From Shigella phage SfII, in the sequence record NC_021857.1: a stretch of 41,475 bases of DNA. One strand, written 5' to 3'. Positions 27,001-30,000 of the stretch are shown here, piece by piece. A program made the position numbers. Positions within the stretch are counted from its first letter, which is position 1, and each line of letters begins with the position of its first letter.

Positions 27001-30000
27001 GCATGGCCCGGTACCTGTGGAATCACTTTGAACATCTCTGTTGCCGGGATACCTTCCAGTACAGGCCAGAAAGAGCCATCATCAAGCCCGAGATCGCGGC
27101 GTTCGGTTGCCAGCATAATGAGATCGGCATATTTCACTGGCGTGCTCATAACAGGAGGTAACCCGTATTTCTCACGGATTACGGCGTCTATTTTTTCTTC
27201 CATCCGTTTATAGTCAGGAAGAAGTCGTTTCAGTGGTGCGGGGATGTCCTGGCAATATGCTTCTGTTGCATCATGCATTAAAGCTTCAAAAGCAAATTCC
27301 TGCGGCACCAGCTGGCTGCAAAGCACCGCATATTGGGCGACACTGTAGAAGTGTGAAAGATGTCCTGCAAAGCGACAGATATTTGAAAGGGAAACCGCGA
27401 TATCGTTAATAACGATGTCGTCTTTATTTATCCTGTCATAATAAAAATGCTTCCCGGAAAAAGTTTTAATAAATGACATTTTGTTCTCCACGTATATGCG
27501 CTGCACCGCGCTGAATTCGGGTAAAAGGAAGCCCTCACCGTCCGGCGATTATTGAGTCAATTACATTTCCATAAATGCCCCCGTAGGGGCGGTTAGTTTC
27601 TCCACAAAACAGAGAAGAACACCTGCGGTGGCAGCCGCTCGGATGGATTGGGTTATGAGCCCGTCGTCCGGTGATGCTCTTCTCTGTTTTGTAAAAAGGA
27701 CGGTACCAGCCGGAAGCAATGGTACAAACTGGTACCGCCAGGACTACACACAGCATAAAGTTGTGGTGCCGGGTGCCTCCCGGTGCCTGGCGAAGGTTGC
27801 ACACCAGACGGGTGGGTATCCACAGAAGGTCGACTGTCAGCCTCAACCTTAACCCGCGTGCGCTGAGCCGCATTCACCACAACGCTAAGGATTCTCTTTG
27901 GTTGAAAATACTTAGCTGTTATGTGCCTGTCTTTTCACCACTTCAGGCTCGGTGGTATCTTGGTGTTTTCATATAGCCAAGAAGGAAATAGTTATGACCA
28001 AAGAAGAAAAAATTCTTTATTTATTCCAACTATCGGTTAAGACTCACACTGCATATCAGACTGCTGCCATGACATCAGATAAAAATTACAGTACGTCAGA
28101 AAACCCGATAGACGACATAAGCAAGCTTTACGATAAGTTCGAAGCACTACTCGATAAAAAGTTTGCTGAGGCTGGGCTTGAGTGATTGTTGAATAATCGA
28201 CAAAACCCAACTTAAATTTTCGTCAGTGGGCTCGATGCCATGTGCGGTGAGCTCACTTTTCAAAACTCCAAGTAATTCAGAGCTGATTTTCAATATATCT
28301 GCTTGATTTCTAACTATTCCCACTTTTTCCTCCCTTGGTCTACGCGCGGTCATGTTTTACGCCCAAACGACTTCACAGTTATTGTTTAAAATCTGGACTT
28401 TCATTTCATACACCTGCTTTAACATGAGTGCCTGGTGGCACAACATGACTCAACGAATCATCCTGGACTTCATATGCCCCAGGCGGCTACTTCGTGGGCG
28501 TCCTGCCTGTTCGTTTTTGACATTTACTGACTGCTTACGACACATGCACCGTGTTGCAACCAGATTTTGTTGTAATCCTGTAGTTGGTCTGGAACAAAAG
28601 ATAAAATTAAATTGCGAGATATGCAAGTGATATTTGCGATATATGCAAATTTATAGGTAATAAAAAGCCACCTTTCGGTGGCCGATGGATGGGATATTGA
28701 GGTTAATTATGTCTCTTAAGGGTTTGCGACTGACTGATTAAGACCTTTCCAAAGACCATGAATCGGTGTTCGTTTTCGCTAGTAATTCCCCATTCACGGT
28801 AAATCTGGTTATCAGAAATCACCAGCAGTTTGTCAGGAATCATTTGAAGTCTTTTAACATATATTTTGTCATCAAAACCAAAGACATATATACCATCACC
28901 ATCAAACTGATTGATGCTGACATCAACGAAGATGAGATCTCCTGGCTCAATGGTTGGACACATACTGTCCCCACGAACGTTGATAACTTTGATGTGATTG
29001 GCTGGTCGTCCGCCGAACATTGATACAGCATTATCAGTTCTGTATTCGATGGCATGAATCACATCAATGACATCACCGCCCTGGATAAGGCCATTTCCCG
29101 CACTTGCACTGATATCCAGCATTTCAATACGGAACACATCCTTCACCTGCGCAACATCCTCATTATTACTGTTTTTATATACAGTATTACTTTTGTGGGC
29201 AGAGGTAAAGAGATCAGCAATATCAACACCTAAGCTCTTGGCAATATTACTCAGTGTTTGTTCGGTAAATTGTTTTTGCTTACCCGTTTCTAAGCGCGAG
29301 ATGTTCGCCGCATCTACTCCTATTGCTTCAGCGAGATCGGCGATTTTCATGTTCTTCGCTTGGCGAAGTTGTCTGACTCGGTTTCCTATGTTCATGCGTT
29401 TATTACATTTCTTTATTGCGTGATAAGCAAATCAACTTGCGCAAAATAATTGCGTGAAATAACATGCATAACGCGCAATATTTGGAGGGCATATGCAATC
29501 ACCATTACGAAATGTGCGTAAGGCGCATGGTTTCACTTTGCAGCATGTTGCTGCGGGTGTTCAAGTCAATCCAGCGACGTTGAGTCGTATTGAGAGACTG
29601 GAGCAGATTCCATCTATCGAGCTTGCAGAACGATTAGCCAATTTTTTTAAGGGTGAAGTCAGCGAAATGCAGATTCTTTATCCGGCACGTTTTCAATCTA
29701 GCCAAAACCAGAATGGGTTTAAACCACAGGAACAGGAGGTGAACCGTGGGTAAGCATCACTGGAAAGTAGAAAAACAGCCTGAGTGGTACGTGAAAGCTG
29801 TCAGAAAAACTATCGCAGCGTTGCCGGGGGGGTACGCTGAAGCTGCTGACTGGCTGGATGTAACAGAGAACGCATTATTTAACCGCCTTCGTGCCGATGG
29901 CGATCAGATTTTCCCGCTGGGATGGGCAATGGTTTTACAGCGTGCTGGTGGCACTCACTTCATTGCTGATGCTGTGGCGCAGTCTGCAAATGGCGTCTTT

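What the first reader, a model, noticed from the sequence alone, without database searches (positions are those of the whole stretch)
27994..28353. Convergent overlapping small ORFs next to PL (possible N-like factor and a plus-strand moron)
A 63-aa plus-strand ORF with a strong RBS (27994-28185) overlaps the 3' end of a 68-aa minus-strand ORF (28147-28353) whose Arg-rich N-terminus (MTARRPREEK) and position as first gene downstream of OL/PL suggest an N-like antiterminator. A plus-strand gene embedded in the minus-strand early operon is atypical and could be an independently expressed lysogeny-phase gene or an antisense regulator.
Basis: inference. Interest (0 to 1): 0.35.

Follow-up and report, generated by a model that had tools for sequence, protein, structure and literature searches.

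The report
Paired convergent small genes beside PL
The two overlapping small ORFs are both real genes and form a fixed convergent pair in the N/sieB position of a lambda-like E. coli prophage, but the leftward one is not an N-like antiterminator and a rightward gene there is normal for lambdoid phages.

Summary
ORF A (27994-28185, +, 63 aa) and ORF B (28147-28353, -) overlap by 39 nt. Both are under purifying selection and match PHROG families of unknown function.

- B's conserved start is the GTG at 28323, behind an AGGGAGG Shine-Dalgarno, giving 58 aa.
- The "Arg-rich N-terminus" is that ribosome-binding site plus a recombination junction, and no homologue has it.
- B is acidic (pI 5.2) and predicted as a two-helix hairpin. 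It has no nearby boxA and no N-family match.
- ST64B shares the PL leader and downstream terminator but has an empty slot.

The plus-strand gene is not atypical. Lambda N/sieB and P22 24/sieB have the same convergent layout, and a 35-nt element upstream of A is 94% identical to the one upstream of lambda and P22 sieB.

The new result is the pairing. In all 61 other loci examined (23 distinct sequence pairs, A down to about 34% identity), A sits convergent to a gene whose C-terminal ~50 aa is the B domain, with a 23-45 nt 3' overlap.

My best inference, untested, is a prophage-expressed factor (A) coupled to an early PL-expressed partner (B) through protein antagonism and antisense transcription, as with P22 SieB/Esc.

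The parts
27994..28185 (+). Gene A: 63-aa acidic (pI 5.0) protein predicted as two helices; member of phrog_2605; annotated by PGAP as hypothetical protein WP_000159356.1
   Evidence: (dN/dS 0.03-0.20)
28147..28323 (-). Gene B: 58-aa form starting at GTG 28323, with SD AGGGAGG at 28335-28329; acidic, predicted two-helix hairpin; member of phrog_15476. The ORF stays open to ATG 28353 (68 aa), but that extension is not conserved.
   Evidence: (dN/dS 0.09-0.35)
28147..28185 (.). 39-nt convergent 3' overlap of A and B. It is the most conserved part of the cassette: 6 of 36 sites vary, against 67 of 153 in the rest of A.
27922..27956 (+). Conserved 35-nt element upstream of A, containing hairpin H1 (ACCAC 27937-27941 / GTGGT 27952-27956). 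It is 94% identical to lambda 34394-34428 and to the sequence just upstream of the annotated P22 sieB promoter. It marks the left boundary of the variable slot.
27934..27961 (+). Candidate promoter for A (inference only): TTCACC (27934-27939), 16-nt spacer, extended -10 TGgTATCTT (27953-27961). TGGTAT is conserved in all SfV-type cassettes but is GGTTCT in lambda and P22. It falls below the threshold of the consensus scan.
   Evidence: read directly from sequence; not reported
27958..27982 (.). Hairpin H2 (TCTTGG 27958-27963 / CCAAGA 27977-27982). It covaries with TTCTCG/CGAGAA in lambda and P22, TCCTTTTA/TAAAAGGA in SfV, GCTGG/CCAGC in L005 and CTCCT/AGGAG in L027. Its 3' arm abuts or overlaps A's Shine-Dalgarno.
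   Evidence: read from sequence
28357..28425 (-). 22-codon remnant ORF (MLKQVYEMKVQILNNNCEVVWA*) equal to the N-terminus of SfV orf33. It marks the right-hand recombination junction of the A/B cassette (about 28343-28356).
28447..28518 (-). Conserved structured element of the PL leader: a closing helix plus two hairpins, with 5 covarying pairs. It is shared by phages with different immunity regions and different slot contents.
   Evidence: 98.4 bits
28598..28648 (-). OL operators (28612-28626 and 28634-28648) and the inferred PL (-35 TTGCAT, -10 TATCTT at 28603-28598)
   Evidence: the promoter hexamers are inference
28666..28683 (-). Intrinsic terminator of the cI transcript, which separates cI from OL/PL
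27690..27905 (-). STnc100-like structured RNA on the PL transcript just downstream of the cassette. It ends in a strong hairpin plus U-run (27693-27739), which is the first terminator after B.
   Evidence: RF02076, 39.5 bits against gathering score 47, E 8.4e-7, full-length match; z = -6.8

Best explanation
**Shown.** The window is an SfV/ST64B/CPS-53-type lambdoid prophage of E. coli. Between its cI-like repressor/OL-PL and its early-left operon lies a variable slot. The slot is bounded on the right by a conserved structured PL leader and on the left by a 35-nt element that also precedes sieB in lambda and P22. Here the slot holds a ~400-bp two-gene cassette.
- B is 58 aa and is the first and only coding gene on the PL transcript before the first strong terminator.
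- A is 63 aa, convergent to B, and overlaps B's 3' end by 39 nt.
- Both are genuine protein-coding genes.
- A is never found without a convergent, 3'-overlapping gene that ends in the B domain.

**Inferred mechanism.**
1. In the lysogen, PL is repressed. A is transcribed rightward from its own promoter at the sieB-type element and makes a small helical protein with a prophage-phase function. By position and analogy with SieB, that function is most likely interference with other phages.
2. On induction or infection, PL fires. B is made first.
3. The PL transcript runs antisense across the whole A gene, so A expression is shut down by collision and antisense pairing.
4. B protein binds and neutralises A, or is itself held in check by A. 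In longer relatives the B domain may act as a portable A-binding module on other early proteins.

The cassette has nothing to do with N-type antitermination.
For: - Phage type and gene map.
- Both genes under purifying selection. PHROG membership.
- Conserved start of B.
- Obligate pairing: every look-up of an A or a B homologue returned the partner. The same holds at 34-42% identity and with long forms of B: Edwardsiella phage EPP-1, a 140-aa form next to sieB, and a 201-aa form in a DicB-type prophage.
- HMM scan of all loci held: 61 loci with A besides the window, every one with a convergent B-domain ORF overlapping by 23-45 nt. No locus had B without A. There were 23 distinct (A,B) pairs, and A identity versus B identity gave Spearman 0.65.
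- Same architecture in lambda and P22, with a mapped sieB promoter and TSS annotated in P22. Conserved upstream element.
- P22 sieB is prophage-expressed, and Esc/sas provide self-protection and antisense control at this same locus: PMC10883804 abstract; PMC12197685.
- Other cassettes in the same slot are also convergent pairs. SfV orf33 is paired with an unannotated 81-aa plus-strand ORF (phrog_3311, E 1e-55), and L005 carries a second pair behind a second copy of the element.
- First terminator lies downstream of B.
Against: - There is no expression data for this prophage. The promoter of A is inferred only, and the consensus scan found no sigma-70 site.
- In P22 the mapped sieB TSS lies downstream of the conserved element. 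The element itself is therefore not proven to be a promoter.
- Neither protein resembles any known defence, anti-defence or toxin family: PADLOC, Pfam and NCBIfam gave nothing, and Foldseek against the PDB gave nothing significant.
- A-B binding was not tested, because the tools fold single chains only.
- The strict linkage could be partly mechanical. Overlapping 3' ends cannot be separated by recombination without damaging both genes.
- Of the loci scanned, about 30 are near-identical E. coli copies. The number of independent lineages is therefore about a dozen.
Confidence: 0.45

Rival explanations
1. B is an N-like, or otherwise novel, processive antiterminator. On this reading it is made from the immediate-early PL transcript, acts on the conserved PL leader hairpin, and lets RNA polymerase read through the STnc100-type terminator into yfdR-xis-int.
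For: The position is right. B is the only coding gene between PL and the first strong terminator, exactly where N sits in lambda and gene 24 in P22. A conserved, covarying RNA hairpin lies upstream in the leader. No N homologue is annotated elsewhere in this phage type; only a Q-family late antiterminator is.
Against: The Arg-rich N-terminus is not part of the conserved protein. B has pI 5.2, against 10.2-10.7 for N and gp24. It is predicted as a folded helical hairpin. It has no Pfam match. No boxA lies near PL or PR. The leader element has no second copy downstream of PR. Phages with the same leader and the same terminator region have unrelated genes in this slot (SfV, mEp460) or none (ST64B), so read-through there cannot depend on B. 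The B domain also occurs fused to several different N-terminal modules.
Confidence: 0.04
2. A and B are two functionally unrelated accessory genes ("morons"). They travel together only because their 3' ends overlap and the slot has fixed recombination boundaries. There is no protein-protein or antisense interplay.
For: The slot is a mosaic hot spot with conserved flanks and many alternative contents. Overlapping ends make separation by recombination costly. No direct evidence of interaction exists.
Against: The pairing survives to 34-42% identity. It survives across different prophage backbones (SfV-like, DicB/Rac-like, Edwardsiella). It also survives changes in overlap length (23, 27, 33, 39, 45 nt) and fusion of the B domain to different N-terminal modules. 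The 3' junction has therefore been remodelled repeatedly, yet the partners were never exchanged. In a family as mosaic as the lambdoid phages, this argues for selection on the pair.
Confidence: 0.25
3. Reverse polarity, an antidote model. B, or the effector domains fused to it in long forms, is an early host-takeover or toxic protein. A is the prophage-expressed antidote that protects lysogens from leaky PL expression, backed up by its antisense transcript. This would be a toxin-antitoxin-like safeguard rather than an exclusion system.
For: The evidence for pairing and architecture is the same as for the best explanation. The B domain sits at the C-terminus of larger early proteins, which suits a regulatory handle bound by A. 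In L070 and L071, A is frameshifted while B is intact, which argues weakly against strong B toxicity but not against the model as a whole.
Against: The 58-aa short form of B has no room for an effector domain. There is no similarity to any known toxin, and no PADLOC or Pfam hit. Loci with a disrupted A and an intact B exist.
Confidence: 0.2
4. Only one strand encodes a real protein and the other ORF is a shadow of it.
For: PGAP annotates only A in E. coli TW10722. Small antisense ORFs are common artefacts.
Against: The ORFs overlap by only 39 nt. Each shows frame-specific, third-position-biased variation and low dN/dS in its non-overlapping part. Each has its own conserved SD and start. Each has its own PHROG family.
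Confidence: 0.02

Closest known systems
Lambda N/sieB and P22 gene 24/sieB-esc-sas locus
   Same: The gene order and orientation are identical: repressor, OL/PL, leader, first early gene transcribed leftward, then a convergent rightward gene. The same 35-nt element lies upstream of the rightward gene. At this locus P22 combines a prophage-expressed exclusion protein, a self-protection product and an antisense RNA (PMC12197685; PMC10883804).
   Different: A is a 63-aa soluble helical protein with no similarity to SieB (PF14163 was not hit). B is not N or gp24. In lambda the two genes abut without overlapping. In P22 the protecting product Esc is an in-frame part of sieB, not a PL gene. In P22 the mapped sieB promoter lies downstream of the element, whereas here only 38 nt separate the element from A's ATG.
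Prophage accessory ("moron") genes transcribed against the lytic operons, for example STMMW_20121 of ST64B
   Same: A small gene of unknown function in a mosaic slot, oriented against early lytic transcription, with a likely promoter of its own (PMC7067206).
   Different: A comes with an obligate convergent partner that belongs to the lytic transcript. A classical moron is a single autonomous promoter-gene-terminator unit.
Lambda N-type (arginine-rich motif) antiterminators
   Same: Only the position of B: it is the first gene after PL and lies before the first terminator.
   Different: B lacks a conserved ARM, is acidic, is predicted to be folded, has no nut sites, and is dispensable in close relatives.
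Convergent 3'-overlapping antisense modules (type I toxin-antitoxin pairs such as txpA/RatA; my own knowledge, not tested here)
   Same: Convergent transcription with a short, conserved 3' overlap that would pair the two RNAs.
   Different: Here both partners are conserved proteins. Neither is a small hydrophobic toxin, and neither partner is a non-coding RNA.

Membership tests
Lambda N-type antiterminator | Conserved N-terminal arginine-rich motif that binds boxB | tested here: not met
   Nine of eleven homologues start at residue 11 of the window ORF, and the other two are the E. coli 68-aa cluster and a mis-extended 82-aa call. There are 0-1 Arg in the first 15 residues across the family. 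MTARRPREEK is specific to the window lineage and is encoded by the SD plus a junction.
Lambda N-type antiterminator | Highly basic, intrinsically disordered protein | tested here: not met
   pI is 5.2 (58 aa) or 6.6 (68 aa), against 10.7 for lambda N and 10.2 for P22 gp24. AlphaFold2 predicts two helices, H7-27 and H34-55, at pLDDT 70.
Lambda N-type antiterminator | nut sites (boxA plus boxB hairpin) downstream of both PL and PR | tested here: not met
   No YGCTCTTTA match with up to 1 mismatch lies between 26552 and 31184. The leader hairpin model R1 finds only the PL copy and nothing on the plus strand after cro. Local alignment of the leader against the PR region gave only a trivial match.
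Lambda N-type antiterminator | Sequence or profile similarity to known N families | tested here: not met
   Pfam: 0 families at E <= 1. NCBIfam: none. PHROG hits are only to families of unknown function.
Lambda N-type antiterminator | First gene of the PL transcript, upstream of the first terminator | tested here: met
   Operators and PL lie at 28598-28648. B is at 28323-28147. The first strong hairpin plus U-run is at 27739-27693.
Lambda N-type antiterminator | Terminator read-through activity that depends on the protein | not testable with these tools
   This needs a reporter assay. Comparative argument against it: ST64B has the same leader and terminator but no ORF in the slot.
SieB superinfection-exclusion protein (PF14163) | Homology to SieB | tested here: not met
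   No Pfam hit for A. A is 63 aa; P22 SieB is annotated at 29758-30336, i.e. 192 codons.
sieB-slot gene (positional class) | Rightward gene convergent with the first PL gene and preceded by the conserved 35-nt element | tested here: met
sieB-slot gene (positional class) | Expressed from its own promoter in the lysogen | not testable with these tools
   Only a candidate extended -10 promoter was read from the sequence. The consensus scan found none.
phrog_2605 (A) and phrog_15476 (B) | Full-length profile match | tested here: met
   A matches positions 1-63 of 69, E 1.4e-33. B matches positions 1-68 of 68, E 7.4e-50. Both families have unknown function.
Known anti-phage defence systems and type II toxin-antitoxin systems | Match to a PADLOC, Pfam or NCBIfam model of a defence or TA component | tested here: not met
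   no hits for A or B.
HK022 put antiterminator RNA (considered for the PL leader 28447-28518) | A ~70-nt two-stem RNA just downstream of PL, with a related second copy downstream of PR | tested here: inconclusive
   The leader is a conserved, covarying, multi-stem RNA of about 62 nt. By my reading of the sequences it sits close to PL in SfV, and about 70 nt downstream of the inferred PL start in the window. Against membership: no second copy after PR and no sequence similarity to the HK022 PL/PR regions. Activity was not testable.
Rfam RF02076 STnc100 (considered for the GC-rich region) | Score at or above the gathering threshold | tested here: inconclusive
   39.5 bits against a gathering score of 47. 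The match is full-length (1-206 of 206), E 8.4e-7, on the minus strand at 27690-27905. It was not reported at the gathering threshold.

The most novel reading that the evidence does not exclude
A and the B domain form a previously unrecognised, widespread two-component switch of enterobacterial lambdoid prophages. A would be a prophage-phase protein, and B a portable early-phase domain that binds it. The two genes would be hard-wired together by an obligatory convergent 3' overlap, so that firing of PL silences A by antisense transcription and neutralises it by protein binding at the same moment. This would be a new exclusion/anti-exclusion (or toxin/antidote) family occupying the classical N/sieB position.
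Probability: 0.3. Interest if true: 0.6.

Novelty: new variant of a known kind. Interest (0 to 1): 0.4.

Why it matters
The immunity-proximal region of lambdoid phages is among the best-studied pieces of DNA in biology. Even so, this slot carries protein families of entirely unknown function.

Showing that A and the B domain are an obligate convergent pair gives a concrete, testable handle on two PHROG families. It also suggests that the N/sieB slot is a general docking site for cassettes that pair a lysogeny-phase gene with a lytic-phase gene.

The result has practical value for annotation:
- B and SfV's plus-strand ORF are missed by annotation pipelines.
- An "Arg-rich N-terminus" can be an artefact of an upstream in-frame ATG at a recombination junction.

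If the pair turns out to be an exclusion/anti-exclusion module, it would add a compact new prophage defence system. If not, it remains an ordinary accessory cassette.

Tried and rejected
- Rfam at gathering thresholds over the whole window: no hits.
- Pfam, NCBIfam and PADLOC on A, B and the other slot proteins: nothing informative.
- Foldseek against the PDB with AlphaFold2 models of B (best E 2.1) and A (no match): uninformative for two-helix proteins.
- tblastn of B against the phage collection: no match. For A: only Edwardsiella phage EPP-1.
- Scan of GTDB representative genomes with the A profile: only the Kluyvera locus already held.
- boxA search and a leader-versus-PR alignment, looking for nut sites: negative.
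- Covariance model of the PL leader, looking for a putR-like second copy: only a weak minus-strand hit at 32474-32537 (17 bits) that lacks the second hairpin. Rejected.
- BLAST of the leader and the GC-rich region against the HK022 PL/PR region: only 8-10-nt words.
- Papers not held: Ranade and Poteete 1993 on the sieB promoter, and King et al. 2011 on put-like RNAs. The P22 promoter position therefore rests on the BK000583 annotation.
- The consensus promoter scan found no sigma-70 site in 27400-29900. All promoter assignments here are read by eye and marked as inference.
- I considered reading the 35-nt element as lambda tL1 and rejected it. Its minus-strand hairpin is followed by A-rich sequence, not U-rich, and from my recollection of the lambda map tL1 lies to the right of this position. 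That recollection was not verified with tools.
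Full report
**Context.** The window is a lambdoid prophage of the SfV/SfIV/ST64B/CPS-53 (yfd) type.
- The flanks of the finding match SfV, SfIV, mEp460 and ST64B at 80-98% identity, but the 27960-28335 core has no DNA match in the phage collection.
- The core occurs at 80% or more coverage in 63 of 5,426 complete E. coli genomes.
- The gene order is int (24895-26058, -), xis, yfdT, yfdR (26943-27506, -), a GC-rich non-coding region, the two small ORFs, an S24-peptidase cI-type repressor (28703-29395, -), cro (29493-29753, +), ymfL, replication genes and a Q-family late antiterminator.
- Two identical 15-bp operators lie left of cI at 28612-28626 and 28634-28648. Related sites lie between cI and cro at 29416-29430 and 29464-29478.
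- A clean intrinsic terminator ends the cI transcript at 28683-28666.

**The observation.** Both ORFs are present exactly as described, and both are real genes.
- A matches phrog_2605 (E 1.4e-33) and B matches phrog_15476 (E 7.4e-50).
- Database searches found diverged homologues in Kluyvera, Atlantibacter, Klebsiella and metagenomes.
- Outside the 39-nt overlap, pairwise dN/dS is 0.03-0.20 for A and 0.09-0.35 for B.
- Variable sites concentrate at third codon positions in each gene's own frame: 17/11/39 of 51 per position for A, and 18/10/31 of 46 for B.
- The ORFs share only 39 nt, so neither signal can be a shadow of the other.
- PGAP annotates A (WP_000159356.1) but not B.

**The true start of B and the "Arg-rich N-terminus".**
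- Nine of the eleven homologues of B are 58-59 aa and begin at residue 11 of the window ORF. The other two are the near-identical E. coli 68-aa cluster and an 82-aa call with an unrelated N-terminal extension.
- In the window that codon is GTG 28323, five bases after AGGGAGG (28335-28329).
- The diverged loci all have an equivalent SD plus ATG or GTG at the same place.
- Similarity between the window and the other cassettes stops about 20 nt upstream of the GTG. Beyond that point the window is homologous to the 5' end of SfV orf33.
- A 22-codon remnant (28425-28357, MLKQVYEMKVQILNNNCEVVWA*) reproduces the N-terminus of SfV orf33 and ends 3 nt before ATG 28353.
- MTARRPREEK is therefore encoded by B's ribosome-binding site plus a recombination junction. 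It is not a conserved protein motif.

**Test of the N-like hypothesis.** B fails every intrinsic criterion.
- There is no conserved ARM: 0-1 Arg in the first 15 residues across the family.
- pI is 5.2, against 10.7 for lambda N and 10.2 for P22 gp24.
- The predicted fold is a two-helix hairpin.
- There is no Pfam or NCBIfam hit.
- No boxA lies within several kb of PL or PR.
- The leader element is not repeated downstream of PR.

B meets only the positional criterion. The comparative evidence is the strongest argument.
- SfV, SfIV, mEp460, ST64B and others share the same PL leader and the same downstream structured RNA and terminator.
- In place of B they carry unrelated genes: orf33 in SfV, and an excisionase-like HTH protein in mEp460.
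- ST64B has no ORF above 40 aa in the slot.
- Whatever lets PL transcription pass the terminator in this phage group therefore cannot depend on B.
- The B domain also occurs as the C-terminal ~50 aa of 120-200-aa phage proteins with at least two different N-terminal modules, phrog_1744 and phrog_1363. That is not what one expects of an antiterminator.

**The plus-strand gene is in the sieB position.**
- The 27-nt core of the block upstream of A is also found upstream of lambda sieB.
- BLAST of window 27921-27966 shows that 27922-27956 is 94% identical to lambda 34394-34428. It matches the corresponding position in P22, HK620, HK140 and many other lambdoid phages equally well.
- In lambda, sieB (34482-35036, +) abuts N (35037-35438, -).
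- In the curated P22 record, the sieB promoter (29690-29720), its mapped RNA start (29727) and sieB/esc (29758-30336, +) are convergent with gene 24 (30357-30659, -), followed by nutL, PL and c2.
- The element lies immediately upstream of that promoter.
- The B/A arrangement is therefore the ordinary lambdoid N/sieB architecture with different genes plugged in. A rightward gene here is not atypical.
- P22 sieB is expressed from the prophage (PMC10883804). The P22 locus also encodes a self-protection product (Esc) and an antisense RNA (sas) (PMC12197685).

**The new finding: an obligate pair.**
- Every contig retrieved through a B homologue also carried A, and every contig retrieved through an A homologue also carried B. 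The pair was always convergent, with overlapping 3' ends, and lay between a cI-type repressor and the early-left genes.
- This holds at deep divergence. In Edwardsiella phage EPP-1, A is 40% identical and is paired with a 121-aa protein whose C-terminus is the B domain (hhalign probability 96%; overlap 33 nt).
- A 140-aa B-domain protein next to a sieB gene is paired with a 64-aa A homologue (42% identity, probability 99%; overlap 45 nt).
- A 201-aa form in a DicB-type prophage is paired with a 63-aa A homologue (34% identity, probability 98%; overlap 23 nt).
- I scanned all loci held, including 43 IMG/VR contigs, with HMMs of A and B. All 61 loci with A besides the window also had a convergent, overlapping B-domain ORF. 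No locus had one gene without the other.
- There are 23 distinct (A,B) pairs. A identity and B identity co-vary (Spearman 0.65).
- About 30 of these loci are near-identical E. coli copies, so the number of independent lineages is about a dozen.
- The 3' junction has been remodelled repeatedly (overlaps of 23, 27, 33, 39 and 45 nt) and the B domain has been fused to different N-terminal modules, yet the partnership has never broken. This argues for functional coupling rather than mere physical linkage.

**Other cassettes in the slot follow the same plan.**
- SfV has an unannotated 81-aa plus-strand ORF (L001 3407-3652; phrog_3311, E 1.2e-55) directly after the same element. It is convergent with orf33 and overlaps it.
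- Locus L005 has two tandem cassettes, each with its own copy of the element.
- SfIV carries two plus-strand genes of unknown function in the slot (PMC3851460).

**Mechanism.** Several facts bear on it.
- B is the sole coding gene on the PL transcript before the first strong terminator.
- A is oriented so that PL transcription is antisense to all of it.
- The two are inseparable.
- Both are small, acidic, two-helix proteins.

The rest is inference.
- A is probably made in the lysogen from a promoter at the sieB-type element. My candidate is TTCACC, a 16-nt spacer, then TGgTATCTT at 27934-27961. TGGTAT is conserved in all SfV-type cassettes but not in lambda or P22, which use the mapped downstream promoter.
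- When PL fires, it probably both silences A through convergent transcription and delivers B, which binds A or is bound by it.
- The functional label, exclusion factor plus self-protection, rests only on analogy with SieB/Esc at the homologous position.
- The reverse polarity, with B-type early proteins restrained by a prophage-made A, is almost as likely.
- I put about 0.45 on an antagonistic pair with A as the lysogeny-phase effector, 0.2 on the reverse polarity, 0.25 on no functional interplay, and 0.05 or less on any antiterminator role.

**Surroundings worth recording.**
1. *PL leader, 28518-28447 (-).* This is a conserved structured RNA of about 62 nt with an outer helix and two hairpins. 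The 3' hairpin shows five different compensatory stem variants around a conserved 12-nt loop. It occurs next to different operators in phages of Escherichia, Salmonella, Shigella, Klebsiella, Yersinia, Pantoea, Citrobacter and Pectobacterium, and in T5-like Providencia phages. This phage group has no N. HK022 uses a cis-acting put RNA just downstream of PL (PMC9378689). A put-like role is therefore an attractive lead. Against it, there is no second copy after PR and no sequence similarity to HK022 put.
2. *GC-rich region.* This is a full-length but sub-threshold match to Rfam STnc100 on the PL-sense strand (27905-27690; 39.5 bits against a gathering score of 47; E 8e-7). It ends in a strong hairpin plus U-run at 27739-27693. 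A covarying hairpin of about 90 nt follows at 27604-27692. The whole region folds far better than shuffled controls (z = -6.8). In ST64B, an sRNA (STnc1310) and two genes downstream of cI are reported as induced together with the lytic genes (PMC7067206). I could not map these onto the present elements.
3. *The 35-nt element and hairpin H2.* A second hairpin follows the element, and its sequence covaries between phage groups. Which strand or level uses these structures remains unexplained.

**Verdict.** The N-like interpretation is rejected. The view that a plus-strand gene here is atypical is also rejected, because this is the classical sieB position. What remains is a modestly novel, well-supported comparative result: an obligate convergent two-gene cassette of unknown function in the N/sieB slot.

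Noticed in passing
window 28447-28518 (-): Conserved structured RNA of about 62 nt in the PL leader: an outer helix plus two hairpins, with 5 covarying pairs. It is shared by phages of many genera with different immunity regions, including T5-like Providencia phages. It is a possible put-like cis antiterminator or a stability element. The window has a single copy.
   Followed up: partly
window 27690-27905 (-): The GC-rich region is a full-length, sub-threshold match to Rfam STnc100 (39.5 bits, gathering score 47, E 8e-7) on the PL-sense strand. It ends in a strong intrinsic terminator at about 27739-27693.
   Followed up: partly
window 27604-27692: Long hairpin of about 90 nt with an 18-bp stem (arms 27604-27621 and 27675-27692). 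It has compensatory changes relative to locus L006. One A·C mismatch on the plus strand would be a G·U pair on the minus-strand RNA.
   Followed up: partly
window 27922-27984; lambda 34394-34460; P22 BK000583 about 29655-29710: A 35-nt element almost invariant from lambda and P22 to SfV-type and Edwardsiella phages. It contains hairpin H1, and GCCTG (27925-27929) could pair with CAGGC (27944-27948) to form a pseudoknot. A second hairpin H2 follows, and its sequence covaries between groups. The functional strand and role are unknown.
   Followed up: partly
L001 (SfV NC_003444) 3407-3652 (+), record 25054-25299: Unannotated 81-aa ORF (phrog_3311, E 1.2e-55) directly after the conserved element, convergent with orf33 and overlapping it. 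It overlaps the site that the SfV record annotates as a putative rho-independent terminator (locus 3387-3419).
   Followed up: partly
window 28357-28425 (-): 22-codon remnant identical to the N-terminus of SfV orf33. It marks the recombination junction through which the A/B cassette replaced an orf33-type cassette.
   Followed up: yes
L005 5235-5767 and 5834: A second convergent gene pair (108 aa and 69 aa, no family match) sits between cI and the A/B cassette. It lies behind a second copy of the conserved element.
   Followed up: no
P0025, P0027, P0029, P0030, P0031, P0034, P0037; loci L024, L025, L027: The B domain also forms the C-terminal ~50 aa of 120-200-aa phage proteins with N-terminal modules phrog_1744 or phrog_1363. 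The long forms whose loci were examined (L024, L025, L027) were still paired with a convergent A homologue.
   Followed up: partly
L070 2358-2659; L071 1522-1823 (IMG/VR): The A homologue is split into two frames, apparently by a frameshift, while the partner B ORF is intact.
   Followed up: no
window 32474-32537 (-): Weak match (17 bits, E about 0.01) to the PL-leader covariance model. It lacks the second hairpin and lies on the strand antisense to PR transcription, so it is probably chance.
   Followed up: no
window 28494-28510 (+): Terminator-like hairpin plus T-run on the plus strand, inside the complement of the PL leader. It could stop A's rightward transcript before it reaches OL/PL and runs antisense into cI.
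   Followed up: no
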